The translations under genes and the position numbers were made by a program. The notes under the pieces are model-generated. The model was not told the origin of the DNA. It worked only from the letters and a program-made list of their open reading frames with translations, and made no database searches. A DNA stretch of 64,000 nt from a virus (taxonomy: Duplodnaviria; Caudoviricetes), in IMG/VR virus record IMGVR_UViG_3300034374_009547. One strand, given 5' to 3'. Below are positions 3 to 63,999 of this stretch, one piece after another (the first letter of the stretch is position 1; each line of letters starts with the position of its first letter).

Positions 3-1637
3 GCACCAGACGATGATGTAGAAGCAATTAGTAGTCTTATGGGTCAAATCAATAGTGCAGGTGATTGGGATAGAGTTGTTGCTAAGTTTAATGACGAGTA
101 CCAACAAAATTTAAATTTTAGACTTGCTGATGAATTAAACGATGAAGACTATGATAGATTTGTACGTAGAAACCTATTTAGAATTCGCAGAATTATGCCA
201 ACTATTTTACATTCAGCAATAAATTGGGGTAATGACCAAGAAAGTTTAGATGTATCCGTAGATAGTGAAACATATCAAGTTAAGAAAAAATTAGAATCTG
301 GTAAGGTAGTAGTTGTCGGTGGACGTAATAGAAACGTAAAAGATGCAATATTAGAAGATACTATTTTAAAAACAGCAATTACACAAACAGGCGGCAACAT
401 TCCAGACATGAATGTAGAAGTCACAAGTGAAAATTTACGTGATGCTGGATTTGTTGTTATAGCCGGTATAGAACAAGCAGCACCAGAAATGGTCGCATGG
501 TACACAGCACAAAATCCTTTTGACGAATCAAGAGCAGCACAATTAGGACCAAGACGACTTGCAGGCATTAGAGAAGAAATGGCTAGATTGCTTGCTAACG
601 GTATGTCAAATACATCAGCTATGTCATGGGTAGCAAACGAAGTTAACAGAGATAGAGAATGGTTAATTGGTGATGGCACTGATGAAAATCCAGGTGCAGC
701 AAATGTTCATTTTGATAGACGCTATTTAGAAGAAGGAGATCCAACTAGAAATGGTGAGTTTGGATCTAATGACGCAGATGAACATGAAATTACAGATGAA
801 GAACAAGAGCTAATTGATCGTTTAACTGGCACTGAAGAAGAACAGCAAGGTGTTATTGCAGAAATTGCAAATGAACCTAATCATATAGAAGTATGGTCAA
901 GTACATATAGAGGCTTTGAAAAAAGTGAACGTGAAACTTGGGATACTACAATCGGCGATGTTGATGAGTTTATAAAAATTGCAAAAGAAGGTGCAGATAG
1001 AAACGGATCCTTGCTTGAACAAGCAATTGGTAATTTTGGTTTGGTGTATGGTGCGCCAAATCTTATGGCACAAGCATTTGAAAAAAGTATGGAAAATAGC
1101 ATTCTTGCACTTATTCCTGGCGGTAGAGGACCAGGAGGTGATAACGAAACATTAGATATACTTGTGGCTGCTATTGATAACAAAACAGAATATGATTTAG
1201 TAAACGAATACTTCCGTCAAATTAGTGGTGTAACAGATGATTTGATTGATGAACTAGCAGGCGAAGAATTATTTAATTCAATGTATAATAACTTGGCAGA
1301 AAAAATTGGTGGAGAAAGTGCGGTTGACTTACGAACATCTGGTTTAACATCTAGTGTTGTACGAAGATTAGAACGTGCAGCAGAAGATCCATCACCAGAA
1401 AACTTAAATGCAATTTTGAGAGCTTTAAGCAGTAAAGAAATTTTAGATAAGGAAAGTATTACAGCAATTGTTGATGCATTAGATAACATTGTACAAGAAT
1501 TTGGTGCAACTTTTGATGATGAACAACGTGAAGAAATTGCATCAATTCAAGAACGCTTAGAAGAAATCAAAGATATAATTGATGACGAAGGCTGGTGGGA
1601 TTATATTTGGCGTAAAGCAGGAGGTTGGTTTGATTAA
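3..1637 (+). CDS. Large acidic hypothetical protein, 5'-truncated by the window edge
   Basis: The ORF 39..1637 frame stays open upstream to position 3 (gca cca gac gat gat gta...). D/E-rich, no motif recognised. Confidence 0.75.
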   Translation, partial: APDDDVEAISSLMGQINSAGDWDRVVAKFNDEYQQNLNFRLADELNDEDYDRFVRRNLFRIRRIMPTILHSAINWGNDQESLDVSVDSETYQVKKKLESGKVVVVGGRNRNVKDAILEDTILKTAITQTGGNIPDMNVEVTSENLRDAGFVVIAGIEQAAPEMVAWYTAQNPFDESRAAQLGPRRLAGIREEMARLLANGMSNTSAMSWVANEVNRDREWLIGDGTDENPGAANVHFDRRYLEEGDPTRNGEFGSNDADEHEITDEEQELIDRLTGTEEEQQGVIAEIANEPNHIEVWSSTYRGFEKSERETWDTTIGDVDEFIKIAKEGADRNGSLLEQAIGNFGLVYGAPNLMAQAFEKSMENSILALIPGGRGPGGDNETLDILVAAIDNKTEYDLVNEYFRQISGVTDDLIDELAGEELFNSMYNNLAEKIGGESAVDLRTSGLTSSVVRRLERAAEDPSPENLNAILRALSSKEILDKESITAIVDALDNIVQEFGATFDDEQREEIASIQERLEEIKDIIDDEGWWDYIWRKAGGWFD

Positions 1638-2281
1638 TGGCTTTTTTAGTCCATCCATTACCACCTATTTCAGTTTATGTACGAAAAGAATACTTGTATG
1701 ATTTAGAGAAGGGGCACGGTGAATATACTCCAGGAATCTGGATTAGTGTTAAAAGCACACAATACAAAGCATTGTATTTTGAAACACTATTAACAGACTA
1801 CGGAGCATTATATGACAAACTTCCTATATCGGCATTTGTTTGGAAAATACCGCACGGCGAGATTCTTCCGCTTGATGTGCTACAGCTTTGGGATTGTTTT
1901 GATTACGACATTACCGTTGTCCAAAAACCCATCTTGTCTAGATGTGAATTTTTTGGAAAGGACAAACGTATGCATGCCGGTGAGTATGAGTTCACCATCG
2001 ATAATTGTCACCGCGATCATTCCGTCCTTGACACCAACTTCTCAGAACACGATCCTGAGCACAAATCATTTAATGTTATTAGACTTGACAACGGTCAATT
2101 CGCTGCTCAGCCTAATAACAGGGTTATCTGGAGAGATAGCTCCTTAACACCTGAGAAACTATTAACACCAGATTTTAAAGTGTGTACACAAAACTATGCT
2201 GTAGAAACAGAACCAAAATGGAGTGTTGGTCATACTGACGAATGGCAGTATAAAACACTTGACGAAGAATCGAAAACATAG
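1637..2281 (+). CDS. Conserved phage hypothetical protein (214 aa)
   Basis: TAATG stop/start overlap. The N-terminus MAFLVHPLPP..KEYLYDLEKGHGE resembles proteins I recall from T4-like aquatic phages. Confidence 0.75.
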   Translation: MAFLVHPLPPISVYVRKEYLYDLEKGHGEYTPGIWISVKSTQYKALYFETLLTDYGALYDKLPISAFVWKIPHGEILPLDVLQLWDCFDYDITVVQKPILSRCEFFGKDKRMHAGEYEFTIDNCHRDHSVLDTNFSEHDPEHKSFNVIRLDNGQFAAQPNNRVIWRDSSLTPEKLLTPDFKVCTQNYAVETEPKWSVGHTDEWQYKTLDEESKT

Positions 2282-2287
2282 TATATT
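2259..2287 (+). promoter_or_regulatory. sigma70-type promoter
   Basis: TTGACG-17 nt-TATATT, upstream of AAGGAG RBS and ATG 2312. Confidence 0.65.
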
Positions 2288-2311
2288 AAAACAATAACCA
2301 AGGAGTATTAT

Positions 2312-2578
2312 ATGAGCGATCGTGTCTATGGCCCTGAAGAAAAGGCCAAACTAGAACGTTTAGTCAAAGAAGGCGTAACCGTTTTACAAGAAATTGAAGA
2401 TTTGCAAGGCGGATTAAAAGAAACAATTAAAGCAGTAGCAGAAGAATTAAATGTAAAACCAAGTTTAATTAACAAAGCAATAAAAGTTGCACAGAAACGT
2501 GATTGGTCACGTGTACAAGACGAGTTTGAAGACTTAGAAACTATCGTAGCTACAACTGGTTACGATAAAGATGCATAA
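2312..2578 (+). CDS. Small dsDNA-binding protein, T4 DsbA/GapR(DUF2312)-like
   Basis: 88-aa helical pattern (KLERLVKEG..EIEDL..LKETIKAVAEELNVKPSLINKAIK), AAGGAG RBS, directly before the polymerase. Confidence 0.55.
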   Translation: MSDRVYGPEEKAKLERLVKEGVTVLQEIEDLQGGLKETIKAVAEELNVKPSLINKAIKVAQKRDWSRVQDEFEDLETIVATTGYDKDA

Positions 2579-2587
2579 GGACTATAT

Positions 2588-5251
2588 ATGCCATACGTAG
2601 ACGCATTTTTTGACAGAGACGCAGACATTATTCGTGCAGTAGAACGCAAAGATGGTAAACGTCACTATCAAGAATATCAAGCAAAGTACACATTTTACTA
2701 TGAAGATCCAAGAGGCAAATACAAAAGTATTTTTGGTGATCAATTGCAACGAGTAGTATGCAAAAACACAAAAGATTTTAGAAAAGAACTTGCTATAAAC
2801 AAAGGCAAGAAAATGTTTGAGTCGGATGTAAACCCAATCTTTCAGTGTTTGAGTGAAAACTATCTTAACCAAGATGCACCTAAACTGAATGTTGCGTTTT
2901 TCGATATTGAGACAGACTTTGATCCAGAACGTGGCTTTGCGGATCCTAGTGATCCATTTATGCCAATTACTGCAATCACGGTACACTTACAATGGCTTGA
3001 TGCACTTGTAACTTTTGCACTTCCACCAAAGACACTTACTATAGAACAAGCACAGGCAGAAGTTGCAGATTTTGATAATACTTATTTGTATGCTAACGAA
3101 GGAGACATGCTAGAAGCATTTCTCGATGTTATTGAAGATGCAGATATTTTGTCTGGTTGGAACTCAGAAGGTTATGATATTCCTTATACGGTAAATCGTG
3201 TTAGTCGTATACTAAGTAAAGATGATACAAGACGCTTTTGTTTGTGGCAGCAATTGCCTAAACGTAGAGAATTTGAAAAGTTTGGTAAGACTGCTGAAAC
3301 ATTTGATACCATCGGAAGAGTCCACATGGATTATCTCGAATTGTATCGCAAGTATACATATGAAGAACGTCATACATATAGACTAGATGCTATCGGTGAG
3401 ATGGAAGTTGGTGAAAATAAAACGGTATATGAAGGCACACTTGATCAACTTTATAACAACGACTTCCGCAAGTTTATTGAATACAACAGGCAAGACGTTG
3501 CACTACTAGATAAAATTGACAAAAAACTACGTTTTATTGATCTTGCTAACGAAATTGCACACGATAATACGGTGCTTCTACAAACTACTATGGGTGCTGT
3601 GGCTGTAACAGAACAGGCTATTATTAACGAAGCACATAATAGAGGTATGCAAGTCCCTAATAGACGTGAACACGAAGGCAACACAGCAGCAGCAGGTGCA
3701 TATGTTGCATTTCCAAAAAAAGGTGTGCATGAGTGGATTGGTTCAATGGATTTGAATTCACTTTATCCAAGTATTATTCGTGCTATGAATATGGCTCCAG
3801 AAACTATTATTGGTCAAATACGTTTAGATTTAACAGATGAATTTTTACACAATGCAACAACACTAGAAAAGAAAAGTTTTGCAGGTGCTTGGGAAGGCAA
3901 GTTTGCTGTATTAGAATATGATGCAGTAATGGAACAGCGTAAAGATGTTGCACTTACACTAGATTTAGAAGACGGTACTAGTCATGTACTAAGTGGTGCA
4001 GAAATATATAAATTAATTTTTGATAGTCAACAGCCGTGGATGTTGAGTGCAAATGGTACTATATTTACTTGGGAAATCGAAGGTGTTGTTCCAGGTTTAT
4101 TAAAACGTTGGTATGCTGAACGTAAAGAACTACAAGCAAAAATGCGCAAAGCAATTGCAGCAGGAAATGATACAGAAATTGCGTTTTGGGATAAAAGACA
4201 GCTGGTTAAAAAGATTAACTTGAATAGTTTGTATGGTGCTATTCTTAATCCAGGTTGTAGATTTTTTGATAAACGTATCGGACAATCAACTACACTTACC
4301 GGCAGACAAATTGCAAAACACATGGCTAGTGAAGTCAATAAAATTATCACAGGCGAATATGATCATGTAGGCAAAGCAATTATATATGGTGATACAGACT
4401 CAGTTTACTTCAGTGCATATCCTGTACTCAAAGATGAAATTGCAGCAGGAGATATTCCTTGGGGCAAAGATAATGTTATTACATTGTATGATCAACTATG
4501 TGAACAAGCAAACACAACATTTCCAGACTTTATGCGTACAGCATTTCATTGTCCACGTCCACGCAGTGAAGTTATTGCAGCAGGTCGTGAAGTTGTTGCA
4601 GACACAGGGTTGTTTATTACTAAAAAACGCTATGCAGTGCGTGTGTATGACTTGGAAGGTAACCGCACTGATAAAGACGGCAAACTAGGTAAAGTTAAAG
4701 CAATGGGTTTAGACTTGAAACGTAGTGATACGCCAGTGTTTATGCAAGACTATTTAAAAACATTGCTAGACATGGTGTTGGATCTAAAGGATGAAAAAGA
4801 TCTACTAGATAGTATTACTGAATTTAGACGTGAATTTAAAGAACGCCCAGGATTTGAAAAAGGTTCGCCTAAACGTGCTAACAAGATTGGACACTATCAA
4901 CGACTTGAAGAAAAGCAAGGCAAAGCAAACATGCCTGGACACGTTAGAGCAAGTATCAACTGGAACACACTCAAGCGTATGAATGGTGACAAGTATTCGC
5001 AAGAGATTGTAGATGGTATGAAAGTTATTGTTTGCAAATTAAAGCAAAATCCGTTACAATATACTAGTGTTGCATATCCAACAGATGAATTGCGTTTGCC
5101 TGATTGGTTTAAAGAACTGCCGTTCGATGGGGATGCTATGGAAGAAGTTATTATTGACAACAAACTTGATAACTTGATTGGTGTACTCAACTACGATTTA
5201 GAAAGTACAAAACAAAATAATACATTTAATAGTTTATTTGAGTGGGGTTGA
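2588..5251 (+). CDS. polB: Family B DNA polymerase (T4 gp43-like) with 3'-5' exonuclease
   Basis: ExoI FFDIETD, ExoII GWNSEGYDIPY, ExoIII YNRQDV. Polymerase motifs DLNSLYPS, KINLNSLYG, YGDTDS, KKRYA. Confidence 0.97.
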   Translation: MPYVDAFFDRDADIIRAVERKDGKRHYQEYQAKYTFYYEDPRGKYKSIFGDQLQRVVCKNTKDFRKELAINKGKKMFESDVNPIFQCLSENYLNQDAPKLNVAFFDIETDFDPERGFADPSDPFMPITAITVHLQWLDALVTFALPPKTLTIEQAQAEVADFDNTYLYANEGDMLEAFLDVIEDADILSGWNSEGYDIPYTVNRVSRILSKDDTRRFCLWQQLPKRREFEKFGKTAETFDTIGRVHMDYLELYRKYTYEERHTYRLDAIGEMEVGENKTVYEGTLDQLYNNDFRKFIEYNRQDVALLDKIDKKLRFIDLANEIAHDNTVLLQTTMGAVAVTEQAIINEAHNRGMQVPNRREHEGNTAAAGAYVAFPKKGVHEWIGSMDLNSLYPSIIRAMNMAPETIIGQIRLDLTDEFLHNATTLEKKSFAGAWEGKFAVLEYDAVMEQRKDVALTLDLEDGTSHVLSGAEIYKLIFDSQQPWMLSANGTIFTWEIEGVVPGLLKRWYAERKELQAKMRKAIAAGNDTEIAFWDKRQLVKKINLNSLYGAILNPGCRFFDKRIGQSTTLTGRQIAKHMASEVNKIITGEYDHVGKAIIYGDTDSVYFSAYPVLKDEIAAGDIPWGKDNVITLYDQLCEQANTTFPDFMRTAFHCPRPRSEVIAAGREVVADTGLFITKKRYAVRVYDLEGNRTDKDGKLGKVKAMGLDLKRSDTPVFMQDYLKTLLDMVLDLKDEKDLLDSITEFRREFKERPGFEKGSPKRANKIGHYQRLEEKQGKANMPGHVRASINWNTLKRMNGDKYSQEIVDGMKVIVCKLKQNPLQYTSVAYPTDELRLPDWFKELPFDGDAMEEVIIDNKLDNLIGVLNYDLESTKQNNTFNSLFEWG

Positions 5252-5781
5252 TGTTTGAATTATTTAAAACAGAACACAAAGGTTTAGGAAGTGTTGTTGA
5301 AGTAAGTATTGATTATTCTGCACAACAAATTAAAAGGCAGTACAAAGAAAACGGAATAACTTGTAACGGAAATGAAACACAGGTAAAAAAACAAGATATA
5401 GATAATTTTTTTCAAAATGAAGTATATTGGCTTAATAAACTTCAAGGGGAATGGATACCAAAAACTCTAAATATAGATATGCATACACAAACAATAATAC
5501 AAGAATATACAGGACCAAACTTATTATACCAAAAAAACAACTTGCCTGAAAATATTGTTGAGCAAGTTATAGAAATGTATAAATTTTTTAAAGATAAAAA
5601 TGTTTTTAAAAGAAATGGAAGCATGAGTAATTTAACTTTAAAAGGAAATAAACTAATTGCTTTTGATTTTAAATGGGCAAAAAAAAGACCTGAAGGATTA
5701 GATATGGAAATTAAAAGTTATAATGATTGGCTTAGTAAAATAGACAAAAATTTAACAAACACTCTTAAGGAAATGTTATGA
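5251..5781 (+). CDS. Protein-kinase-like fold protein (possible pseudokinase)
   Basis: NEVYWL..L, IIQEY, KRNGSMSNL and IAFDFKWA fall in kinase subdomain order. ATG 5251 overlaps the polymerase TGA. Confidence 0.5.
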   Translation: MFELFKTEHKGLGSVVEVSIDYSAQQIKRQYKENGITCNGNETQVKKQDIDNFFQNEVYWLNKLQGEWIPKTLNIDMHTQTIIQEYTGPNLLYQKNNLPENIVEQVIEMYKFFKDKNVFKRNGSMSNLTLKGNKLIAFDFKWAKKRPEGLDMEIKSYNDWLSKIDKNLTNTLKEML

Positions 5782-6215
5782 AAGTAGGATTTACATGTAG
5801 TACATTTGATTTACTACACGCAGGACATATACAAATGTTACGTGAAGCAAAAGAACAATGTGATTATTTGTTAGTAGGATTACAAATTGACCCAAGTGTA
5901 GATAGAGCTGAAAAAAATGCACCAATACAAAGTATTGTAGAACGTTATACTCAACTAAAAGCAGTATCGTATGTAGACGAAATAGTTCCATATGCTACCG
6001 AAACTGACCTAAATGATATCTTGACAATGTATCATATAGATGTTAGAATATTAGGAGAAGAGTATCGTGAAAAGGATTTTACGGGCAAGGATATTTGCAA
6101 GAAGCGGGGTATCCAGCTATATTTCAACAAAAGAGATCACCGCTTCTCATCAAGCGATTTAAGAAAACGAGTATGCGAAAGGGAAAACAATGTGGACACT
6201 TTGGATCATAAGTAG
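5778..6215 (+). CDS. Cytidylyltransferase (glycerol-3-phosphate cytidylyltransferase/TagD-like)
   Basis: TFDLLHAGH (HxGH motif), ER..QL.AV.YVDEI, and C-terminal SSSDLR. Confidence 0.88.
   Translation: MKVGFTCSTFDLLHAGHIQMLREAKEQCDYLLVGLQIDPSVDRAEKNAPIQSIVERYTQLKAVSYVDEIVPYATETDLNDILTMYHIDVRILGEEYREKDFTGKDICKKRGIQLYFNKRDHRFSSSDLRKRVCERENNVDTLDHK
6021..6049 (+). promoter_or_regulatory. sigma70-type promoter internal to the cytidylyltransferase gene
   Basis: TTGACA-17 nt-TAGAAT with an extended -10 TG. Confidence 0.55.
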
Positions 6216-6354
6216 CGTGATTGACAGCGCAGAACCTAAACTCACTCAATATGAAACTTTTGAAACTGCTATGAGTTGTCATATTGAACAGGCTGTACTC
6301 GAAGCAGACTTTACACAAGAAGAAATAGCGTTCTGCGAGGACCCGAATGAATAA
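6190..6354 (+). CDS. Small hypothetical protein (54 aa), not in the ORF track
   Basis: MWTLWIISSVIDSAEPKLTQYETFETAMSCHIEQAVLEADFTQEEIAFCEDPNE*. It fills the gap and overlaps both neighbours. Confidence 0.6.
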   Translation: MWTLWIISSVIDSAEPKLTQYETFETAMSCHIEQAVLEADFTQEEIAFCEDPNE

Positions 6355-7060
6355 ATTTATTTTTGATGTGGACGGAACACTAACTCCGAGTAGACAAACT
6401 ATTGATCCAGAGTTTAAAGAGTTTTTCAAACACTTTATCCAAGATAACAAGGTTTGGCTTGTAACTGGTAGTGATTATGCTAAAACCGTAGAACAACTTG
6501 GAGAGGATATTTGTGAAAGTGTTGTAACCGTGTATAATTGTTCAGGAAACGATACATGGTTCAAAGGCAAACGTGTAAACAGCAAACCATTTGAAGCACC
6601 TAAAGAACTATATGATCTAATGAATGGCTGGTTGCAAGGTAGTCCATTTTCACTACGTACGGGTAATCATATTGAAGAACGCACAGGAACAATCAACTTT
6701 TCAATTGTAGGACGTAATTGTACGTTAGGAGAACGTAAATTATATATTAAGCATGATCTTGAAAATAGAGAACGTGAAAGTATTGCTTTTCAAATTAATA
6801 GTGAGTTTCCTAATATTACAGCAGCAGTTGGTGGCGAAACAGGTATTGACATATATCGCAAAGGTGGCGACAAAAGTCAAATACTAGAAGACTTTAATAA
6901 AAATGATAAGATTTATTTCTTTGGCGATCGTATGGAGCCAGGTGGCAATGATTGGCCATTAGCAGCAAAACTAAACAAACAAAGATGTTACAATGTAAAA
7001 GATTGGCGTGATACTATGGAACGGTTACAATACTTTCAAGAGGCGAAAATAGCAGCATGA
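6347..7060 (+). CDS. HAD-IIB phosphomannomutase (eukaryote-type PMM family)
   Basis: FDVDGTL (DxDGT), VTGSD, IEERTGTINFSIVGR, GGETGIDI, FFGDRMEPGGND. Confidence 0.85.
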   Translation: MNKFIFDVDGTLTPSRQTIDPEFKEFFKHFIQDNKVWLVTGSDYAKTVEQLGEDICESVVTVYNCSGNDTWFKGKRVNSKPFEAPKELYDLMNGWLQGSPFSLRTGNHIEERTGTINFSIVGRNCTLGERKLYIKHDLENRERESIAFQINSEFPNITAAVGGETGIDIYRKGGDKSQILEDFNKNDKIYFFGDRMEPGGNDWPLAAKLNKQRCYNVKDWRDTMERLQYFQEAKIAA

Positions 7061-7803
7061 TTATAGCAGGTCACGGATTTGTAGGTAAAGCATATGAATG
7101 GTTGTTTGCTAACTATAGAAGAAAAATAGAAATACATGATCCTGCAAAAGGGTTTACAGCTGACTTTGATAATACAAGTGCAGTAATTATTTGTGTACCA
7201 ACACCGCAAGCAGATGACGGCTCTTGTGATATGAGTGCAGTTTATGATGTAGTAGGCAAGTGTAGACCAGATACACCAATAATGATCAAAAGTACAATTA
7301 GTTTGCAAGGATGGTATGAACTTAAAGACCGCTTTCCAAATCATAAATTTTGTTTTAGCCCAGAGTTTTTAAGAGCAGCAAATCACATGATTGATATTAA
7401 AAATATGGATACCTTTATTATTAGTGGTGATACAGAATACTGGCGTGATCAAATTAGTTACAACTGGCCACATATGCGTATACGCACCGTAAAACCTGAA
7501 GAAGCTATAGCAATAAAATATTTTAGAAATGCTTTTTTAGCAACTAAAGTTAGTTTTTTCAATGAAATATATGACTTTTGTTCAGCATACGATATCAGCT
7601 TTGATCAAGTTCAAGGCGGTATTATAGCAGATAAAAGAATAGGAGAAAGTCATAGTTACGTATGGCCAGATGAAGGGGTAAGAGGTTGGGGAGGATATTG
7701 TTTTCCAAAAGACACCAGTGCTCTATTAAAAATGGCAGCAGAAAAAAATATTAATCTAAATACACTAGAAGCAGCAGTTGAATACAATAAAAAAATACGT
7801 TGA
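7057..7803 (+). CDS. UDP-glucose/GDP-mannose dehydrogenase family protein (short, apparently no C-terminal domain)
   Basis: GHGFVG, ICVPTP, IKST, SPEFLR, KYFRNAFLATKVSFFNE, catalytic GGYCFPKD. Confidence 0.88.
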   Translation: MIIAGHGFVGKAYEWLFANYRRKIEIHDPAKGFTADFDNTSAVIICVPTPQADDGSCDMSAVYDVVGKCRPDTPIMIKSTISLQGWYELKDRFPNHKFCFSPEFLRAANHMIDIKNMDTFIISGDTEYWRDQISYNWPHMRIRTVKPEEAIAIKYFRNAFLATKVSFFNEIYDFCSAYDISFDQVQGGIIADKRIGESHSYVWPDEGVRGWGGYCFPKDTSALLKMAAEKNINLNTLEAAVEYNKKIR

Positions 7804-7828
7804 CAATCAACAACTTAGGCAGTATAAT
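7800..7828 (+). promoter_or_regulatory. Consensus sigma70 promoter for the clamp-dpdA unit
   Basis: Perfect TTGACA-17 nt-TATAAT, followed by AGGAG RBS and ATG 7849. Confidence 0.85.
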
Positions 7829-7848
7829 AAGAAACATAGGAGAAACAT

Positions 7849-8580
7849 ATGAAAGACATTCTACAAGACATTGTAAGCCATACACATTCGTTAGGCATTA
7901 TTTCAACACTTAAAATTACAACAGAAAATGATATCACAACTATTGAAAGTATGGCAGACGATAGAAGTGTTATTATGACAGCAACAACACATTCACCAGT
8001 AGGCGAATTTGTAGGTACATTTGGTATGCCTGATTTAGGTAAACTAGCTTATCATTTAAAAAATCCAATGTACAGAGAAAATGCTAAAATTGAAGTAATA
8101 AGTGCAGAACGCAACGGTGAAGTTGTTCCAACACATATTCACTTTGAAAACGATACAGGTGACTTTAAAAACGATTATCGTTTTATGATTAAAGAAATTA
8201 TCGAAGAAAAAATTAAAAAGTTTAGTTTTAAAGTTAATACATATGATGTAGAAATCCAGCCAAGAATTGGTAAAATTGAACAAATGAAATACATGCAAGG
8301 CGGACACACAGAAGAAACGGTGTTCCAAGTTAAAACTGAAAATGATAACTTGGTATTTTATTTTGGTGATGATGTAACACACGCAGGTAACTTTGTATTT
8401 GAGCAAGGTATTACTGGAAAACTAACACATACATGGGCATGGCCTGTTTCACAAACTATTGCTATTTTGAACTTGGATGGTGATAAAACTATGAGCATCA
8501 CAGACCAAGGTGCTATGAAGATTAGTGTAGACAGCGGCATGGCAAAATACGATTACATTCTACCGGCTCAACAAAAATAA
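7849..8580 (+). CDS. Putative DNA sliding clamp (gp45/PCNA-like)
   Basis: 243 aa with an alternating beta/alpha pattern of clamp size, in replication-gene context. No catalytic motif seen. Confidence 0.6.
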   Translation: MKDILQDIVSHTHSLGIISTLKITTENDITTIESMADDRSVIMTATTHSPVGEFVGTFGMPDLGKLAYHLKNPMYRENAKIEVISAERNGEVVPTHIHFENDTGDFKNDYRFMIKEIIEEKIKKFSFKVNTYDVEIQPRIGKIEQMKYMQGGHTEETVFQVKTENDNLVFYFGDDVTHAGNFVFEQGITGKLTHTWAWPVSQTIAILNLDGDKTMSITDQGAMKISVDSGMAKYDYILPAQQK

Positions 8581-10136
8581 TGAAAACAAACCTAACTGAA
8601 ACACAAAAAGATTATGCAGTATTTTTACCTAGTATTAGCGGCTTTTATGGCACGTTTGTAGGTAAACAAAGATATGAAGATTATGTTGATCCTTCTCGTG
8701 TTCCAGCAGGTTTAGGCAATGTAGAAAGTCTTAATTTTTTAAATCCTAAAGACGGAGCATTCCATTACAAGTGGGCGCTCTATTCTGCTGGTCACGCAGA
8801 TTTAGATACGACTAAATTTGTTGATAAAGAAGATATGGTGCGTAACCGTGATAGAGATAATTCATGGTTGCTAGGCGACTCAGGTGGTTTCCAAATTGCT
8901 AAAGGGTTGTGGCCCGGTGACTGGACTAGCGAAACTTGTCCACATGCAAATAAAAAACGTGAGCTTGTTGTAAACTGGATGGAAGAATACATGGACTACG
9001 GAATGATGCTTGATATTCCTACATGGACCTTCCAAAGTGCAAAAGCAAGTAAAGCAACTAACATAAAAAGTTATGATGATGCTGTAAAAGCTACTCATAT
9101 TAATGCACGTTATTACATGAAACATAGACGTGGTAACTTTAAGGTATTAAACGTACTACAAGGCAGTAATCATACTAATGCCGATAGTTGGTATGAAGAA
9201 TTCAAAGGTTATTGTGATCCAAAACAATATCCAGATACACACTTTAATGGCTGGGCAATGGGTGGTCAAAACATGTGTGATGTTCATTTGATTTTACGCA
9301 GACTTGTACACATGATACACGATGGATTACTTGAACAAGGGCTGCATGATGTAATGCACTTCTTGGGCACAAGTAAACTAGAATGGGCTGTGTTACTTAC
9401 TGACATACAACGAGCTGTTCGCAAATATCATAATCCTAACTTTATGATTACATATGATTGTGCATCTCCTTTTCTTGCAACAGCAAACGGTCAAATTTAT
9501 CATAACATTAGATTAGATCACAAAGGCAAATGGAGTTATATTATGAGTCCAGGTGCTGACGCTTTGAAATATGCTAGTGATACTAGAAGTTTTATAGACG
9601 CAGTACTACAAGATGGCTTATTACCTACATTTGAAGAATCTCCTGTTAGTCAACACTGCAAAATGAATGATATTTGCATTTATGCTCCAGGCGATAAAAA
9701 CAAAGTTGGTACTATTAAAGTTGAAAAAGGTAAGCCAGAACTTGATAAACAAGGTAATCCTTTACTAGACGATAACGGAAATCCAATTATTATGCGTAAA
9801 GATAGCACAAGTTGGGATTCATTTAGTTATGCGCTACAAATGGGTCATAATGTTTGGATGCATATTGAAAGTACACAACGTGCAAACGAGCGTTATGATG
9901 CAGGAGAATATCCTTACATGATGGTATACGAACCAAGTATTAGACATGTGTTTAGAGATATTGTCAATGAAATCTTTGCACAAAAAGATCGTGAAAAAAG
10001 TCTTGCAGTTATTAACAAATATGGTGACGATAAATCGCTAAGTATTTGGACACACATTATTGGTACTAGATTGAAAGTTGGTAAGAAAACAATAACACCG
10101 GAAGCAAAAGCAGACGAATTATTTGATTGGGGTTGA
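8580..10136 (+). CDS. dpdA: tRNA-guanine transglycosylase-fold protein, putative DNA 7-deazaguanine transglycosylase (DpdA-like)
   Basis: TGT motifs in order: DSGGFQ, MMLDIP, GWAMGG, MHFLG, YDCASP. Co-located with queD, folE and queE. Confidence 0.8.
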   Translation: MKTNLTETQKDYAVFLPSISGFYGTFVGKQRYEDYVDPSRVPAGLGNVESLNFLNPKDGAFHYKWALYSAGHADLDTTKFVDKEDMVRNRDRDNSWLLGDSGGFQIAKGLWPGDWTSETCPHANKKRELVVNWMEEYMDYGMMLDIPTWTFQSAKASKATNIKSYDDAVKATHINARYYMKHRRGNFKVLNVLQGSNHTNADSWYEEFKGYCDPKQYPDTHFNGWAMGGQNMCDVHLILRRLVHMIHDGLLEQGLHDVMHFLGTSKLEWAVLLTDIQRAVRKYHNPNFMITYDCASPFLATANGQIYHNIRLDHKGKWSYIMSPGADALKYASDTRSFIDAVLQDGLLPTFEESPVSQHCKMNDICIYAPGDKNKVGTIKVEKGKPELDKQGNPLLDDNGNPIIMRKDSTSWDSFSYALQMGHNVWMHIESTQRANERYDAGEYPYMMVYEPSIRHVFRDIVNEIFAQKDREKSLAVINKYGDDKSLSIWTHIIGTRLKVGKKTITPEAKADELFDWG

Positions 10137-11487: not shown

Positions 11488-11676
11488 ATGACTATCTCTA
11501 ATCCGGTAGTAAATAAAATTTTTAACGATCTTGAGGAACTGCACGACTTCTGCAGAACTGAAGGTTATCCATTTAACCAAGCAGATTTGTATAAGAAAGA
11601 TGCTCGTGTATGGCAGGCATTTCAAAAATACAAAAATTGGGTCCGTGCTAGAAATCGCACCAAAGGACGCAAATAA
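11488..11676 (+). CDS. Small hypothetical protein
   Basis: 62 aa, AAGG RBS, TAATG coupling to the next gene. Confidence 0.7.
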   Translation: MTISNPVVNKIFNDLEELHDFCRTEGYPFNQADLYKKDARVWQAFQKYKNWVRARNRTKGRK

Positions 11677-12851
11677 TGCGTAAGCTGTTTTACATGGGCT
11701 TAGAGCCCTATGAAGGCAGGTACACATTACAACTTGAAGAATGGAGTAGGCGTGCGTTTCAACGCCGCTCCATTGATTGGGTTAATGTACCTGGTACAAC
11801 TATTGACAATACAAAAGCAATTCAAGTAGGCCAAGTGTTAGATGCACATGGCCGTTCCTACTTTGCAATGTCGCAAATGATGAACTTGGTGCAAATGATG
11901 CGTAACGGTGAAGTTACAGGCGAAGATGTAGTTTTCTTTGAAGATATGTTCCAGCCTGGTATGGAATCGCTTCCGTATATTATGGATCAGATTCCCACTG
12001 AGCAACGTCCACAGGTTTGGATTCGTTGTTTAGCACAAGCAGTTGATCCAGATGACTTTGTGCATGTTTGGGGCATGGGCAAGTGGATGAGTTTGTATGA
12101 AGAAATGTGCAACGAGTTTGTTACTGGCGTACTAGCAAGTAATGAAGAAATGGTTGCACACATGAAGATTGCAAACTGGAAGGCTCCTATCTACAATGTT
12201 TCAGGTCTTGCATTTGATAAAACAGAAGTTGCTCTACGTGTTGGCGAGATCAACACTTGGGAAAAGCGTGACAATCGTGTGGTATTTGCAGCACGTTTTG
12301 ATCAAGAAAAACAACCAGACTTTTATATGGATTTGATTGAAGAATGGTATGGTACACCAGGTACAGCAGACGTGGAGTTTTGCATTGTGCAAGGTGGCCC
12401 GCTACGCAGTAACAATCAAAAGTATATTGATCGTGCCCGCAAAATGGAAGAGCGTGGACAACTGGTAATTTATGAAAACTTGAAAAAGAATCATTACTAT
12501 GATATTGTAAATCGTAGTAAAGTTTTGTTCAATTGTGCTTTGCAGGATTGGACAAGCAATACGGTAAGCGAAGCAGATGCATTAGGATGCAATGTGTTGT
12601 TTCCAGCGTATCGCAGTTTTCCAGAAATCTTTGCTAATGATCATACACGCATGTATGTGCCTTGGAGTGTTGAAGATGCAATGAACAAGTTAACGCCATT
12701 ACTAAAAAGCGCACATAAAGACTTAGGTAAGATAAGCGATTGGACTAGTGCAACTATTGATCGTTATATTGATATTATGCAAGGTAACGGTGAACAATGG
12801 CGTAGAGATAGCAATCGTTATCGTGATTATGTTGCGGAGACAAAATATTGA
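11676..12851 (+). CDS. GT-B fold glycosyltransferase (GT4-like)
   Basis: FAARFDQEKQP and DWTSNTVSEADALGC (D/E-x7-E motif) in the C-terminal domain. Confidence 0.8.
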   Translation: MRKLFYMGLEPYEGRYTLQLEEWSRRAFQRRSIDWVNVPGTTIDNTKAIQVGQVLDAHGRSYFAMSQMMNLVQMMRNGEVTGEDVVFFEDMFQPGMESLPYIMDQIPTEQRPQVWIRCLAQAVDPDDFVHVWGMGKWMSLYEEMCNEFVTGVLASNEEMVAHMKIANWKAPIYNVSGLAFDKTEVALRVGEINTWEKRDNRVVFAARFDQEKQPDFYMDLIEEWYGTPGTADVEFCIVQGGPLRSNNQKYIDRARKMEERGQLVIYENLKKNHYYDIVNRSKVLFNCALQDWTSNTVSEADALGCNVLFPAYRSFPEIFANDHTRMYVPWSVEDAMNKLTPLLKSAHKDLGKISDWTSATIDRYIDIMQGNGEQWRRDSNRYRDYVAETKY

Positions 12852-13714
12852 GAGTATTGGTCACAGGTGCTACAGGTTATATTGGCAGTCATGTTTGTAA
12901 ACTACTAAAAGAGCATGGACATCACGTTACTGCTTGGGATATAAATATTCATGGTGAATACAATGACATCATGGCATATTGTGACCATTATTCTTCTTAT
13001 GATATAACTAAGTTTGTACATGGTGGCTTTGACGCCGTTGTACACTTAGCAGGACGCAGTGTAGTACCTGATAGTTTACGTGAACCTACAGAATATTATC
13101 GTGTAAACGTGATGGGTACTGCAAACTTGTTAGATCGTGTCGAAACACCACACATACTATTTGCAAGCACTAGTAGTGCTTGGGAAATGGCATCACCATA
13201 TGCACGTAGCAAAGTGGCAGCAGAAGATGTAATTAAGGAGAAAGCCAATGGATACACTATCTTTAGATTTTTTAACGTATCTGGTACTGACGGGCATAAT
13301 CGTCAACTGGGCGTTCCTACCCATCTTATTCGTGTTGCTGCTATGGTGGCTGCTGAAAAACTACCCAACATTAAGATCTTTGGTACGGACTATGATACTA
13401 GGGATGGTACTTGTATTCGTGATTATATTCATGTTGTTGATTTGGCTCGTGCCATTGTCAACGGAGTGGAACGAGGTCCAGCCAATACGGACTATGAGTG
13501 CCTTGGTAGCAACGTAGGTTATAGTGTACGAGAAGTAATCAGTACTATGGAGCAAGTTACTGGTAAAAAGTTAAATATCATTGAAGCAGAACGCAGAGAA
13601 GGCGATGCTGTTGCCAGTGTTGTAGACAACCTAAGTGATCTAGTTACACTGGAAAAAAGCATCGAAGATATGTGTTTGGATCAATACAAATTGGAAGTTG
13701 GTAAAAATGGATGA
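12848..13714 (+). CDS. galE: UDP-glucose 4-epimerase-like NAD-dependent epimerase
   Basis: GATGYIGS, VHLAG, YARSK (YxxxK), FRFFNV, DGTCIRDYIHVVDLA. TTG start. Confidence 0.9.
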   Translation: MRVLVTGATGYIGSHVCKLLKEHGHHVTAWDINIHGEYNDIMAYCDHYSSYDITKFVHGGFDAVVHLAGRSVVPDSLREPTEYYRVNVMGTANLLDRVETPHILFASTSSAWEMASPYARSKVAAEDVIKEKANGYTIFRFFNVSGTDGHNRQLGVPTHLIRVAAMVAAEKLPNIKIFGTDYDTRDGTCIRDYIHVVDLARAIVNGVERGPANTDYECLGSNVGYSVREVISTMEQVTGKKLNIIEAERREGDAVASVVDNLSDLVTLEKSIEDMCLDQYKLEVGKNG

Positions 13715-20646: not shown

Positions 20647-21378
20647 ATGACAGAAGAAGTAAAAGGACTTAATACTGACAATGTTGAGCCTGTAAAGATT
20701 AGTCAAGTAGTACGTGAAAGACTACAAAAAAACGGTGTTCGTTTTTATGCAAATGACAATATTAGTGAACATATTAGTGAATTTGAATTACAAGAGATTC
20801 AAAACGAATTAAAATACAAGTTCCAAGATGTACTAGATACACTTATTATTGATACAGAAAACGATCCAAACAGCATGGATACTGCAAATCGTTTGGCGAA
20901 GATGTATATTCATGAATTGATGCGTGGAAGGTATTATCCGCAGCCTAATGCAACTGCATTTCCTAATCATACAGATGATGCGTATGATGGTATGCTTGTT
21001 GTGCGTAGCGAACTTAAAAGTGTTTGTTCGCATCACCATCAACCAGTTACAGGTGTAGCATATATTGGTATTCTTGCTGCTGATAAACTTATTGGATTAA
21101 GCAAGTATACACGTATTGCACAATGGTGTGCTAGACGTGGCACACTACAAGAAGAACTTGCAATGGATATCTGTAAAGAAATAATGAAAGTTACAGGTGC
21201 TAAAGATTGTGGTGTTTATATTCAAGCAACACACGGTTGCTGTGAAAATAGAGGCATTATGGCACATAGTAGTTTAACACAAACAAGTGTACTAAAAGGT
21301 GCGTTTAAAACTGATCCTGGTACAAAGAAAGAATTTTTTGATAACATTAAATTACAACAGGAGTTTGCACCGCGATGA
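20647..21378 (+). CDS. folE: GTP cyclohydrolase I
   Basis: SVCSHHHQP, GLSKYTRI, QEEL, HGCCENRG. Confidence 0.95.
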   Translation: MTEEVKGLNTDNVEPVKISQVVRERLQKNGVRFYANDNISEHISEFELQEIQNELKYKFQDVLDTLIIDTENDPNSMDTANRLAKMYIHELMRGRYYPQPNATAFPNHTDDAYDGMLVVRSELKSVCSHHHQPVTGVAYIGILAADKLIGLSKYTRIAQWCARRGTLQEELAMDICKEIMKVTGAKDCGVYIQATHGCCENRGIMAHSSLTQTSVLKGAFKTDPGTKKEFFDNIKLQQEFAPR

Positions 21379-22271
21379 AACTAAGATATAGTGAAGCATT
21401 TTATAGTGTGCAAGGCGAAGGCAAATTTGTAGGAGTACCTAGTGTATTCCTACGCACCTTTGGTTGTAACTTTCGTTGTATGAATTTTGGTGTGGATAAA
21501 AGTGTTGGCAGTCGTTGGGAGCAACACGCAAAAGGTCAACGCTACAACGCAGAAGTAAAACAACTGCTAGATGACGGTGTTCATGAAACTACAAAAGAGT
21601 TTAATGATTTGCCTATTGTGCATACAGGCTGCGATACATATGCAAGTATCTATCCAGAATTTAAACACTTCAATATGCTTAAAAGCGTAGATGAAGTTGT
21701 AGAACACTTGTTGAGTTTGTTGCCGGAAGGCAAATGGACTATGGATAATGGACAAGATGTTCATCTTATCCTTACAGGCGGCGAGCCATTACTTGCTTGG
21801 CAACGGTTGTATGTCGAGCTGTTTGAACACCCAGGTATGCAGGATCTAAAAAATGTCACAATCGAAACCAACACTACACAGCATCTACACGATGACTTCT
21901 ACAACTATCTCAATGGTCACGAAAGAATTCAGCTCACTTTTAGCTGTTCTCCCAAACTATCCGTATCGGGCGAGTCTTGGGATGATGCTATTAAGCCTGA
22001 TGTTGCTCGTGAGTATTCCCTTGTTGATGGCAGCAATATGTATTTTAAGTTTGTTGTTGCTGATCAGAGTGATGTTGACGAAGTTGGTAGAGCAGTTGAT
22101 ACCTATCGTAAAGCGGGCGTGGATGTTCCTGTATATCTCATGCCGCTTGGGGGTAGGTCGGAAGAATACACTCTCAACGTACAAGAGGTGGCGAACCTCT
22201 GTATGGAACGAGGGTGGAGGTTCTCGCCAAGACTCCACATTAGCCTATTCGGAAATGCCTGGGGCACTTAA
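21375..22271 (+). CDS. queE: 7-carboxy-7-deazaguanine synthase (radical SAM)
   Basis: EAFYSVQGEG..VG.PSVFLRTFGCNFRC...GCDT, TGGEP, IETN, SPKL, YLMP, RLH. Confidence 0.92.
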   Translation: MKLRYSEAFYSVQGEGKFVGVPSVFLRTFGCNFRCMNFGVDKSVGSRWEQHAKGQRYNAEVKQLLDDGVHETTKEFNDLPIVHTGCDTYASIYPEFKHFNMLKSVDEVVEHLLSLLPEGKWTMDNGQDVHLILTGGEPLLAWQRLYVELFEHPGMQDLKNVTIETNTTQHLHDDFYNYLNGHERIQLTFSCSPKLSVSGESWDDAIKPDVAREYSLVDGSNMYFKFVVADQSDVDEVGRAVDTYRKAGVDVPVYLMPLGGRSEEYTLNVQEVANLCMERGWRFSPRLHISLFGNAWGT

Positions 22272-63307: not shown

Positions 63308-63999
63308 TACAAATTGTTACTACCCCATTCAAACATTTCAAACATTATTTTATTTTCAACTTCTTTACTATTAGGAATAGTAATTTCAAATTTTTGAAAT
63401 TGATATTTGACGTTTAAAGGTATGCTAACTTTTTCTCCATCTAAATCTTGTGTGTGTTTTTGTAACCTTTCTAAAAATAAATCGATCCTAAAGCGGTCTT
63501 CTGGTACATCACTATTCCATCTTAAATATCCGTTAGGATCCCATCTATTAAAGTTACCATGTTTTACCATACATTGTAGTCCATGATGTTTTTCTTTTCC
63601 AACAAAAAATGCATATAATTTTTTATCTGCATATATGTCCTGTATGTCTTGTAAACTTTTTATTGTTTTTAAAACTTTGCCATTATCATTAAAAAATTGT
63701 GGAACTACTCTAATTACACAACAAGGCTTGTTAAGCCAAATTAATGAGTTCATAAGTGTGTTACCAGGATGAACTCTACTAGGCCAAATGTATACTGGAT
63801 AAACATTTACAGAATTCTTATACAAATCACAGCATAATTCAATTATTTGGGTTGCACGCCGTTGACATTCGTCAGCTACAAAACATTTAAATAATTTCAT
63901 GTCTGTATAACCTAAATACTTGTGTGGCGGATCGAGCCATTCTTTTCCTTTTACATACTTGTGCTGATCATACCATTCATGTGTTTTATAATATACAAA
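63307..63999 (-). CDS. Hypothetical protein, 5'-truncated by the window edge
   Basis: The frame of ORF 63307..63900 stays open to 63999 (FVYYKTHEWYDQHKYVKGKEWLDPPHKYLGYTD-MKLF...). Confidence 0.7.
   Translation of the reverse strand, partial: FVYYKTHEWYDQHKYVKGKEWLDPPHKYLGYTDMKLFKCFVADECQRRATQIIELCCDLYKNSVNVYPVYIWPSRVHPGNTLMNSLIWLNKPCCVIRVVPQFFNDNGKVLKTIKSLQDIQDIYADKKLYAFFVGKEKHHGLQCMVKHGNFNRWDPNGYLRWNSDVPEDRFRIDLFLERLQKHTQDLDGEKVSIPLNVKYQFQKFEITIPNSKEVENKIMFEMFEWGSNNL

What the first reader, a model, noticed from the sequence alone, without database searches (positions are those of the whole stretch)
2588..10136. TGT/DpdA-like enzyme shares the polymerase's C-terminal tail and abuts the clamp gene: replication-coupled base exchange
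Seen: the polymerase ends ...SLFEWG* (DNA 5231-5251) and the TGT-fold protein ends ...ELFDWG* (10116-10136). The last 18 nt match at 17 positions (TTATTTGA[G/T]TGGGGTTGA). No other predicted protein in the window ends this way. The TGT gene overlaps the stop codon of the putative clamp gene and sits under the same perfect sigma70 promoter (7800-7828). Established: T4 gp43, gp55 and gp33 dock on the gp45 clamp through a C-terminal hydrophobic LDF(L/F)-type peptide. Inference: the transglycosylase rides the clamp and swaps guanine for a 7-deazaguanine on newly replicated DNA. I do not know of a described clamp-tethered DpdA. It also argues that the substrate is DNA rather than tRNA.
Basis: partly seen in the sequence, partly recalled or inferred. 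Interest (0 to 1): 0.85.

Follow-up and report, generated by a model that had tools for sequence, protein, structure and literature searches.

The report
Clamp-docking tail on phage DNA transglycosylase
A large uncultured phage encodes an enzyme of the kind that swaps guanine in DNA for 7-deazaguanine, and its floppy tail ends in the same short peptide that the phage DNA polymerase uses to hold the sliding clamp, so DNA modification is probably tied physically to replication.

Summary
The polymerase (2588-5251) ends SLFEWG and the 518-aa protein (8580-10136) ends ELFDWG; no other ORF in the window ends this way.

- ORF 7849-8580 is a PCNA-like sliding clamp: pLDDT 96, and all of the at least 500 best Foldseek PDB matches counted had E <= 0.001 (the 50 listed are PCNA or related clamps).
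- The 518-aa protein has a tRNA-guanine-transglycosylase fold (Z 18) with both catalytic Asp motifs. It has no Pfam hit and no Zn site.
- FolE and a QueE-like gene lie 10 kb downstream.

The exact WG ending is local. The conserved unit is [FY]xxLF[DE].

- It ends the polymerase in 74 of 74 related loci, and all 120 closest transglycosylase homologues carry it or a variant.
- It recurs in Pseudomonas phage PA5oct and Vibrio phage 2.275.O. Whole-proteome scans of those two phages find it only in these two proteins.
- In four genomes both tails changed in parallel.
- The transglycosylase gene follows the clamp gene in 80 of 80 loci.

A co-fold of the clamp trimer with the tail gave weak support: 0.60 against 0.01 for the best control. 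Binding is untested.

The nearest precedent is T4 alpha-glucosyltransferase binding gp45. No paper found describes a clamp-tethered DpdA. This scan had already noted the same idea in at least 21 other genomes.

The parts
2588..5251 (+). Family B DNA polymerase of the T4/RB69 type (887 aa)
   Evidence: Pfam DNA_pol_B 4e-35 and exonuclease domain 1.5e-18; phrog_262 4e-197. RB69 polymerase matches in the PDB at 1e-64.
5225..5248 (+). Polymerase C-terminal peptide FNSLFEWG, the presumed clamp-binding tail
   Evidence: The same TFxxLF[DE][WF]G-type ending occurs in 74 of 74 related polymerases. T4 gp43 ends SLDFLFG and gp55 ends SLDFLYEAND.
7800..7828 (+). Sigma-70-like promoter consensus (TTGACA, 17 nt, TATAAT) ahead of the clamp gene
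   Evidence: 12/12 match. Pattern match only.
7849..8580 (+). PCNA-like sliding clamp (243 aa)
   Evidence: AlphaFold2 pLDDT 96.4, pTM 0.91. All of the at least 500 best Foldseek PDB matches counted had E <= 0.001, and the 50 listed are PCNA, 9-1-1 or viral clamps (best E 2.7e-11, TM 0.65-0.70). No Pfam or NCBIfam hit; phrog_12062, unknown function.
8580..10136 (+). TGT-fold, DpdA-like transglycosylase (518 aa)
   Evidence: pLDDT 85. Foldseek matches to tRNA-guanine transglycosylases at E about 2e-5. VIA-align Z 18, about 300 residues aligned, rmsd 4.6-4.9 A. Nearest viral models include phage Motura TGT and the Vibrio phage nt-1 protein. No Pfam, PHROG or NCBIfam hit.
8871..8894 (+). LGDSGGFQ motif (residues 98-105, Asp100)
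   Evidence: Invariant in 48 homologues. E. coli Tgt has LTDSGGFQ with Asp89.
9450..9473 (+). TYDCASPF motif (residues 291-298, Asp293)
   Evidence: Invariant except Y292. hhalign places it on E. coli Tgt MFDCVMPT with Asp264.
10062..10109 (+). Basic, low-confidence linker GTRLKVGKKTITPEAK (residues 495-510)
   Evidence: pLDDT below 50 for residues 497-509. G495, T496 and G501 are invariant; K502 and K503 are at least 90% conserved.
10110..10133 (+). Transglycosylase C-terminal peptide ADELFDWG, the proposed clamp-docking motif
   Evidence: F515 is at least 90% conserved. All 120 closest homologues carry a tail motif. Co-fold with the clamp trimer: ipSAE 0.60 against 0.01 for the best control, weak support.
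20647..21378 (+). GTP cyclohydrolase I (FolE), first step of 7-deazaguanine synthesis
   Evidence: PF01227 1e-38; phrog_2197 4.5e-43.
21375..22271 (+). QueE-like radical SAM enzyme (7-carboxy-7-deazaguanine synthase type)
   Evidence: phrog_2076 6.5e-52.

Best explanation
The 518-aa protein is a divergent DNA-acting member of the TGT/DpdA superfamily. It ends in a flexible basic linker followed by a short hydrophobic-acidic peptide with the family core [FY]xxLF[DE] (here ELFDWG).

This is the same short linear motif that ends the phage's T4/RB69-type DNA polymerase. In T4 and RB69 that polymerase tail is the peptide that docks on the sliding clamp.

The transglycosylase is co-expressed with the phage's PCNA-like clamp; its gene starts inside the clamp's stop codon. 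It most likely docks on clamps loaded on, or left behind on, newly replicated phage DNA. There it exchanges guanine for a 7-deazaguanine base made by the neighbouring FolE/QueE pathway.

Shown here: the folds, the catalytic motifs, the synteny, the conservation of the motif, and its restriction to these two proteins.

Inferred: binding to the clamp, DNA as the substrate, and coupling to replication.
For: - **Clamp fold.**
- **TGT fold and both catalytic Asp motifs.**
- **Polymerase tail.** It resembles T4 gp43 SLDFLFG and gp55 SLDFLYEAND.
- **Related IMG/VR loci.** The polymerase ends in FxxLF in 74 of 74 loci that hold a polymerase. The transglycosylase gene follows the clamp gene within 10 nt in 51 of 80 loci and within 595 nt in all 80. 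Of 1690 ORFs of at least 100 aa in these loci, all 90 with [FY]xx[LM]F[DE] in the last 12 residues are polymerase or transglycosylase.
- **Closest homologues.** All 120 keep a tail motif: 58 have terminal FxxLF, 44 have FxxLF plus an acidic extension, and 18 have a terminal [LFV][WF][DESG].
- **Distant cultured phages.**
  - PA5oct is 35% identical. Its polymerase ends HFDSLFGW and its transglycosylase has SFNSLFDVD. F[ND]SLF occurs exactly twice in its 85,413-residue proteome, in these two proteins.
  - In Vibrio phage 2.275.O the polymerase ends NNTDLFDW and the transglycosylase ends NNNDLFGW. They are the only two of 473 ORFs that end this way.
- **Parallel changes within one genome.**
  - L052: DMFSVQ and AMFSKA (M and S are unique to that locus in both proteins).
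  - L138: LFDWG and VFDWS.
  - The window: LFEWG and LFDWG.
- **Tail flexibility.** The tail is predicted to be flexible.
- **Co-fold.** Clamp trimer with residues 470-518: ipSAE 0.60, against 0.01 for the best of 3 controls. The runs agree in at least 69% of contacts, and the partner pLDDT is at least 45. This is weak support. The mark was reached by 58 of 80 solved complexes and 2 of 110 mismatched pairs, but a score of 0.60 or under was seen in only 7 of those 80 solved complexes and in both mismatches that passed.
- **Experimental context.** PA5oct DNA resists several restriction enzymes in a pattern that points to a modified G (PMC12191111).
Against: - No binding, activity or modification data exist for this phage.
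- The co-fold pass is rated weak, gives no contact list, and may partly reflect memory of PCNA-peptide complexes.
- The window's own tail lacks the first aromatic residue of the family motif (A511 in place of F/Y).
- The protein matches no curated TGT or DpdA sequence model and lacks the TGT Zn site. Its chemistry rests on fold and two motifs.
- The characterised DpdA2 of Vibrio phage nt-1 shares no tail with its polymerase, so tethering is not general to DpdA.
- For T4 alpha-GT, a 2026 study found that clamp binding is not the main determinant of modification level.
- The parallel tail changes are few and confounded by shared ancestry.
Confidence: 0.7

Rival explanations
1. The shared peptide is a docking motif for a replisome partner other than the clamp, such as the single-strand-binding protein, the clamp loader or a helicase. 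The transglycosylase would still be recruited to replication, but not by riding the clamp.
For: The comparative data show only that the two proteins share a conserved motif. They do not show what it binds. The co-fold with the clamp is only weak support.
Against: The polymerase is of the T4/RB69 type, and its tail resembles the T4 gp43 and gp55 tails, which by established biochemistry bind gp45. The transglycosylase gene is fused to the clamp gene's end in 80 of 80 loci. In the co-fold, replacing the clamp dropped the score to 0.00.
Confidence: 0.12
2. The protein is a tRNA-modifying TGT, or another TIM-barrel enzyme that does not act on DNA. The tail would serve another purpose, such as regulation, turnover or packaging.
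For: All solved structural neighbours are tRNA enzymes. No DpdA sequence model matches. The PA5oct clamp homologue was detected in virions by mass spectrometry and annotated as structural.
Against: - There is no Zn site.
- No model region matches a tRNA-binding C-terminal domain; the aligned range is residues 9-450.
- The gene sits between the clamp and deazaguanine-synthesis genes in this phage, PA5oct and Vibrio phage 2.275.O.
- The nearest named viral structures are phage TGT/DpdA-type proteins.
- PA5oct DNA carries a modified G by restriction assay.
Confidence: 0.08
3. The resemblance of the two tails in this window is coincidence or a local micro-conversion with no function.
For: Only 6 residues are involved. 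Codon identity given the residues has p about 0.03. The WG ending is almost unique to this genome among the transglycosylase homologues.
Against: The underlying FxxLF[DE] core is conserved in both proteins across 80 loci and three distant cultured or uncultured lineages. It is absent from every other ORF scanned.
Confidence: 0.03

Closest known systems
T4/RB69 sliding-clamp clients (gp43 polymerase, gp55, gp33) that bind gp45 through a C-terminal hydrophobic peptide
   Same: The polymerase here is of the RB69 type. Its tail, FNSLFEWG, resembles T4 SLDFLFG and SLDFLYEAND. As in T4, several unrelated proteins of one phage carry the same terminal peptide after a flexible linker.
   Different: The second client is a base-exchange enzyme, not a transcription factor. 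The clamp is PCNA-like by fold but matches no gp45 sequence model. The motif consensus is FxxLF[DE] rather than SLDFL[FY].
T4 alpha-glucosyltransferase binding gp45 (Sommer et al. 2004; re-tested in PMC13216743)
   Same: A phage DNA-modifying enzyme that physically binds the phage sliding clamp and has been proposed to modify DNA as it is replicated.
   Different: The chemistry differs: glucosylation of 5-hmC against exchange of the whole guanine base. No shared terminal peptide with the polymerase is evident in T4 alpha-GT, which ends FKEQFDIITK. In T4 the clamp interaction was found not to be the main determinant of modification level.
Phage DpdA transglycosylases (DpdA1-4; Hutinet 2019, PMC6884629; Cui et al. 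2023, 10.1101/2023.04.13.536721)
   Same: TGT-derived fold, conserved DSGG and DC Asp motifs, and linkage to FolE/QueE genes. The nearest named viral structures include the Vibrio phage nt-1 protein.
   Different: - At 518 aa it is larger than the phiST DpdA3 (259 aa) and the nt-1 protein (464 aa).
- It is not detected by Pfam TGT.
- It has no significant profile match to phiST DpdA3.
- The nt-1 DpdA2 lacks a polymerase-like tail.
- None of the papers found mentions clamp binding.
Eukaryotic DNMT1-PCNA coupling through a PIP box (own knowledge, not tested here)
   Same: A DNA-modifying enzyme recruited to newly replicated DNA by a short clamp-binding peptide.
   Different: That system is methyl transfer in eukaryotes with a QxxLxxFF-type PIP box. 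Here it is base exchange in a phage with a different motif.

Membership tests
TGT/DpdA superfamily (P0003, 8580-10136) | TGT-type TIM-barrel fold | tested here: met
   VIA-align Z 17-18, about 300 residues aligned, rmsd 4.6-4.9 A over residues 9-450. Foldseek E about 2e-5.
TGT/DpdA superfamily (P0003, 8580-10136) | Catalytic Asp in the DSGG[FY]Q motif | tested here: met
   LGDSGGFQ at residues 98-105 is invariant in 48 homologues. E. coli Tgt has LTDSGGFQ at Asp89.
TGT/DpdA superfamily (P0003, 8580-10136) | Nucleophile Asp in the [FY]DC motif | tested here: met
   hhalign places YDCASPF (Asp293) on E. coli Tgt FDCVMPT (Asp264). The pairwise E-value is only 0.006.
TGT/DpdA superfamily (P0003, 8580-10136) | Match to curated sequence models (Pfam PF01702, NCBIfam) | tested here: not met
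   No hit even at E 10. A PDB profile search also found nothing.
TGT/DpdA superfamily (P0003, 8580-10136) | Zn-binding CxCxxC...H site of tRNA TGTs | tested here: not met
   P0003 has no CxCxxC; its cysteines are at 120, 212, 233, 294, 360 and 366.
TGT/DpdA superfamily (P0003, 8580-10136) | Genomic linkage to 7-deazaguanine synthesis genes | tested here: met
   FolE and a QueE-like gene lie in the window. QueE is nearby in PA5oct, and QueF, FolE and a queuosine biosynthesis gene are nearby in Vibrio phage 2.275.O.
TGT/DpdA superfamily (P0003, 8580-10136) | Guanine to 7-deazaguanine exchange in DNA | not testable with these tools
   Needs LC-MS of virion DNA or an in vitro assay. The only indirect evidence is for PA5oct, whose DNA carries a modified G by restriction assay.
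PCNA-type sliding clamp (P0002, 7849-8580) | Two-domain beta-alpha-beta clamp fold | tested here: met
   pLDDT 96. All of the at least 500 best Foldseek PDB matches counted had E <= 0.001; the 50 listed are PCNA, 9-1-1 or viral clamps, TM 0.65-0.70.
PCNA-type sliding clamp (P0002, 7849-8580) | Closed trimeric ring around DNA | not tested
   Three copies were co-folded (pLDDT 91 for the clamp chains), but the ring geometry was not reported.
PCNA-type sliding clamp (P0002, 7849-8580) | Sequence-model match to gp45 or PCNA families | tested here: not met
   No Pfam, NCBIfam or PDB sequence hit. Only phrog_12062, of unknown function.
T4-type C-terminal clamp-interaction peptide | Short hydrophobic/aromatic-acidic peptide at or near the C-terminus, after a flexible linker | tested here: met
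   Residues 497-509 have pLDDT below 50, followed by ELFDWG. The family core is FxxLF[DE].
T4-type C-terminal clamp-interaction peptide | Same peptide on the replicative polymerase of the same phage | tested here: met
   Seen in the window, 74 IMG/VR loci, PA5oct and Vibrio phage 2.275.O.
T4-type C-terminal clamp-interaction peptide | Physical binding to the clamp | tested here: inconclusive
   Co-fold ipSAE 0.60 against 0.01 for the best control, rated weak support. Contact agreement at least 69%; partner pLDDT at least 45.

The most novel reading that the evidence does not exclude
Clamp docking is a general, sequence-readable way in which this very abundant family of jumbo-phage transglycosylases, and possibly other phage DNA-hypermodification enzymes, achieves genome-wide modification. 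The enzyme would scan newly made duplex while held on the PCNA-like clamp. A polymerase-like terminal peptide would then predict which modification enzymes are replisome clients and how completely they modify DNA.
Probability: 0.35. Interest if true: 0.8.

Novelty: new variant of a known kind. Interest (0 to 1): 0.7.

Why it matters
How DpdA-type enzymes find and replace guanines across a whole phage genome is unknown. So is why modification levels range from below 0.1% to 100% between subfamilies (Cui et al. 2023).

A clamp-docking tail gives a concrete and testable mechanism: recruitment to freshly replicated DNA. It also supports DNA rather than tRNA as the substrate of a very large, unannotated protein family. 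More than 7,000 homologues came back from one search, and none of the 120 listed carries a Pfam domain or a more specific name than "hypothetical protein".

Homologues exist in the culturable Pseudomonas phage PA5oct, whose DNA already shows a modified G by restriction assay. The idea can therefore be tested at the bench now.

Tried and rejected
- **Sequence-model searches.** Pfam, PHROG and NCBIfam searches of the 518-aa protein found nothing. PDB sequence and profile searches also found nothing.
- **Megablast.** A search of the locus against cultured phages gave no match.
- **phiST DpdA3.** Comparison with the family profile gave no significant match (hhalign probability 1.5%). The family is therefore not filed under DpdA3.
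- **Sinorhizobium phage Phosso.** The 240-aa neighbour of its homologue does not match the clamp profile. That phage was left out of the argument.
- **Vibrio phage nt-1.** Neither the family profile nor PF01702 finds its DpdA2. It was located by the DSGG motif instead, and its tail is unlike its polymerase's. Clamp tethering is therefore not a general DpdA property.
- **Co-variation statistics.** A formal test of the two tails was not pursued. My motif anchoring mis-set several rows, and the loci fall into two clades, so only the four clear parallel cases are reported.
- **Gene conversion.** The 17/18-nt identity was considered as evidence for gene conversion between the two tails. At p about 0.03 given the residues, with no similarity upstream, this remains undecided.
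- **Whole genome.** None is held for this window, so other clamp clients elsewhere in this phage could not be sought.
- **Complex prediction.** The verdict was weak support, not a clear pass.


Full report
**1. Observation**

The window is 34% G+C and phage-like.

- The ORF at 2588-5251 encodes an 887-aa family B DNA polymerase: Pfam DNA_pol_B 4e-35, phrog_262 4e-197, and RB69 polymerase in the PDB at 1e-64. It ends ...NTFNSLFEWG.
- The ORF at 8580-10136 encodes a 518-aa protein that ends ...KADELFDWG.
- The last 18 nt of the two genes differ at one position.
- Given the shared residues, the window's codon usage puts identical codons and stop at p about 0.026. This is mildly unusual. It fits either chance or a small conversion event.
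- Of 76 non-overlapping ORFs in the window, only these two end this way.
- The stop of ORF 7849-8580 overlaps the next start as TAATG.
- A 12/12 sigma-70 consensus lies at 7800-7828, ahead of a Shine-Dalgarno sequence and the ATG at 7849. This is a pattern match only.

**2. What the genes are**

*ORF 7849-8580 (P0002)*

- It has no Pfam, NCBIfam or PDB sequence match.
- A search of 1.8 billion representatives gave 591 relatives.
- With 66 of them the AlphaFold2 model reaches pLDDT 96.4.
- All of the at least 500 best Foldseek PDB matches counted had E <= 0.001. The 50 listed are PCNA, 9-1-1 or viral sliding clamps, with best E 2.7e-11 and TM 0.65-0.70.
- It is a PCNA-type clamp.

*The 518-aa protein (P0003)*

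- It has no hit in Pfam, PHROGs, NCBIfam or PDB sequences.
- Its model (pLDDT 85) matches tRNA-guanine transglycosylases: Foldseek E about 2e-5, and VIA-align Z 17-18 over about 300 residues, rmsd 4.6-4.9 A, spanning residues 9-450.
- LGDSGGFQ (98-105) and T-Y-DCASPF (291-298) are invariant across 48 homologues.
- These motifs correspond to E. coli Tgt LTDSGGFQ (Asp89) and MFDCVMPT (Asp264).
- The CxCxxC zinc site of tRNA TGTs is absent.
- Among viral models, the nearest named ones are the Achromobacter phage Motura TGT (3e-10) and a Vibrio phage nt-1 protein (3e-8). The phiST DpdA3 is far behind (6e-3).
- FolE (20647-21378) and a QueE-like gene (21375-22271) lie downstream.
- The protein is therefore best read as a divergent DpdA-like DNA transglycosylase. 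It falls outside the four described subfamilies, with no significant profile match to phiST DpdA3.

**3. Is the tail more than chance?**

*Within the transglycosylase family*

- The first search returned more than 7,000 homologues. None of the 120 listed has a Pfam domain or a more specific name than "hypothetical protein".
- The exact ELFDWG ending is found only in this genome's own sequences.
- All 120 closest homologues (58-100% identity) nevertheless keep a hydrophobic-aromatic-acidic motif after a conserved basic linker (GTR-x-x-GKK):

| Tail class | Homologues |
|---|---|
| Terminal [FY]xx[LF]F | 58 |
| The same motif followed by an acidic extension of about 25-35 residues | 44 |
| Terminal [LFV][WF][DESG], such as SLWEI | 18 |

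- F515 is at least 90% conserved, although residues 497-509 have pLDDT below 50.

*In 80 IMG/VR loci plus the window and PA5oct*

- Every polymerase present (74 of 74) ends in TFxxLF[DE][WF]-type peptides.
- The transglycosylase gene follows the clamp gene within 10 nt in 51 of 80 loci and within 595 nt in all 80.
- Of 1690 ORFs of at least 100 aa in these loci, all 90 that carry [FY]xx[LM]F[DE] in the last 12 residues are polymerase or transglycosylase.

**4. Distant, cultured relatives**

*Pseudomonas phage PA5oct (35% identity)*

- The gene order is the same: a polymerase split by a homing endonuclease, a 248-aa clamp homologue, an 86-aa ORF, the transglycosylase homologue, and QueE further on.
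- Its polymerase ends HFDSLFGW. Its transglycosylase has SFNSLFDVD followed by an acidic tail.
- F[ND]SLF occurs exactly twice in its 406-ORF, 85,413-residue proteome, in these two proteins.

*Vibrio phage 2.275.O*

- The order is polymerase, clamp homologue, transglycosylase homologue, then QueF, a queuosine biosynthesis gene and FolE.
- The polymerase ends NNTDLFDW and the transglycosylase ends NNNDLFGW.
- They are the only two of 473 ORFs with such an end.

*Parallel departures from the consensus within single genomes*

| Genome | Polymerase tail | Transglycosylase tail |
|---|---|---|
| L052 | DMFSVQ | AMFSKA |
| L138 | LFDWG | VFDWS |
| Window | LFEWG | LFDWG |
| Vibrio phage 2.275.O | DLFDW | DLFGW |

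- In L052 the M and the S are unique to that locus in both proteins.
- These cases are few and not corrected for phylogeny. They still point to one shared binding partner.

**5. What the partner is**

- T4 gp43 ends SLDFLFG and gp55 ends SLDFLYEAND. By established biochemistry these peptides bind the gp45 clamp. I did not re-read that literature here.
- The polymerase in this window is of the same type, and its tail is alike.
- A co-fold of three clamp copies with residues 470-518 of the transglycosylase scored ipSAE 0.60 (runs 0.63, 0.59, 0.60). The three controls scored 0.01, 0.00 and 0.00, including one with the clamp replaced.
- The runs agreed in at least 69% of contacts, and the partner pLDDT was at least 45.
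- The tool rates this as weak support. The mark was reached by 58 of 80 solved complexes and 2 of 110 mismatched pairs. At 0.60 or under, only 7 of those 80 solved complexes reached it, as did both mismatches that passed. A pass may also reflect memory of PCNA-peptide structures.
- I therefore take clamp binding as the most likely reading (about 0.7), not as shown.

**6. Comparison with the known**

- A phage DNA-modifying enzyme that binds the clamp is not without precedent. T4 alpha-glucosyltransferase co-purifies with gp45 (Sommer 2004, confirmed in PMC13216743). The 2026 study attributes the predominance of alpha-glucosylation mainly to expression rather than to this interaction.
- For 7-deazaguanine systems, the papers found describe DpdA1-4 as post-replicative enzymes, with efficiencies from below 0.1% to 100%. 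None mentions the clamp.
- Iyer et al. 2021 note a deazaguanine synthesis and incorporation system in PA5oct.
[quoted passage not shown] It names QueE and a PTPS but no transglycosylase.
- The nt-1 DpdA2 has no polymerase-like tail, so tethering belongs to this family rather than to DpdA in general.

**7. Earlier notes of this scan**

- The same idea was noted in at least 21 other genomes, and several follow-ups reached similar verdicts. Those notes are not independent evidence.
- One note says that nt-1 DpdA2 is the nearest characterised structure. That agrees.
- This window adds four things:
  - the near-identical LF[ED]WG pair;
  - the whole-proteome specificity in two cultured phages;
  - four cases of parallel change;
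  - the negative control in nt-1.

**8. Verdict**

- Novelty: a new variant of a known kind (a clamp client).
- Interest: 0.7.

Noticed in passing
window 63307-63900 (- strand): A 197-aa ORF ends MFEMFEWGSNNL. It carries an FEWG like the polymerase tail, but 4 residues from the end. It has no Pfam or PHROG match. It could be another clamp client or chance.
   Followed up: partly
L025-L081 and P0079-P0117 (homologues of 8580-10136): In 44 of the 120 closest homologues, and in PA5oct, the FxxLF[DE] motif is followed by a conserved acidic extension of about 25-35 residues. It often ends LDETKLEELEDEQL. This looks like a second conserved tail element of unknown function.
   Followed up: no
window 5778-7803: Nucleotide-sugar genes sit between the polymerase and the clamp: a cytidylyltransferase-like gene, a phosphomannomutase-like gene and a truncated-looking UDP-glucose dehydrogenase. 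A GT1-family glycosyltransferase (11676-12851) and an epimerase (12848-13714) lie downstream of the transglycosylase. Together they hint at a sugar-bearing modification. The same set is present in L138.
   Followed up: no
window 27003-28085: A 360-aa ATPase (phrog_1297 1e-99) has a weak match to the clamp-loader family phrog_168 (4e-4). It is a candidate loader for the PCNA-like clamp.
   Followed up: no
L001 (PA5oct MK797984) 6912-7658; L084 (Phosso) 8181-8903: The PA5oct clamp homologue is annotated 'structural protein' on the basis of virion mass spectrometry. The unrelated 240-aa gene upstream of the Phosso homologue is annotated 'virion structural protein' and does not match the clamp profile.
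   Followed up: partly
L001 (PA5oct) 1605-6831: The PA5oct family B polymerase is split into two ORFs by a Hef-like homing endonuclease gene. The clamp-type tail is on the second piece.
   Followed up: no
P0062, P0059 (homologues): Some homologues carry two copies of the motif. In P0062, QFNKLFDIEY is internal and ESLFEVK is at the very end.
   Followed up: no
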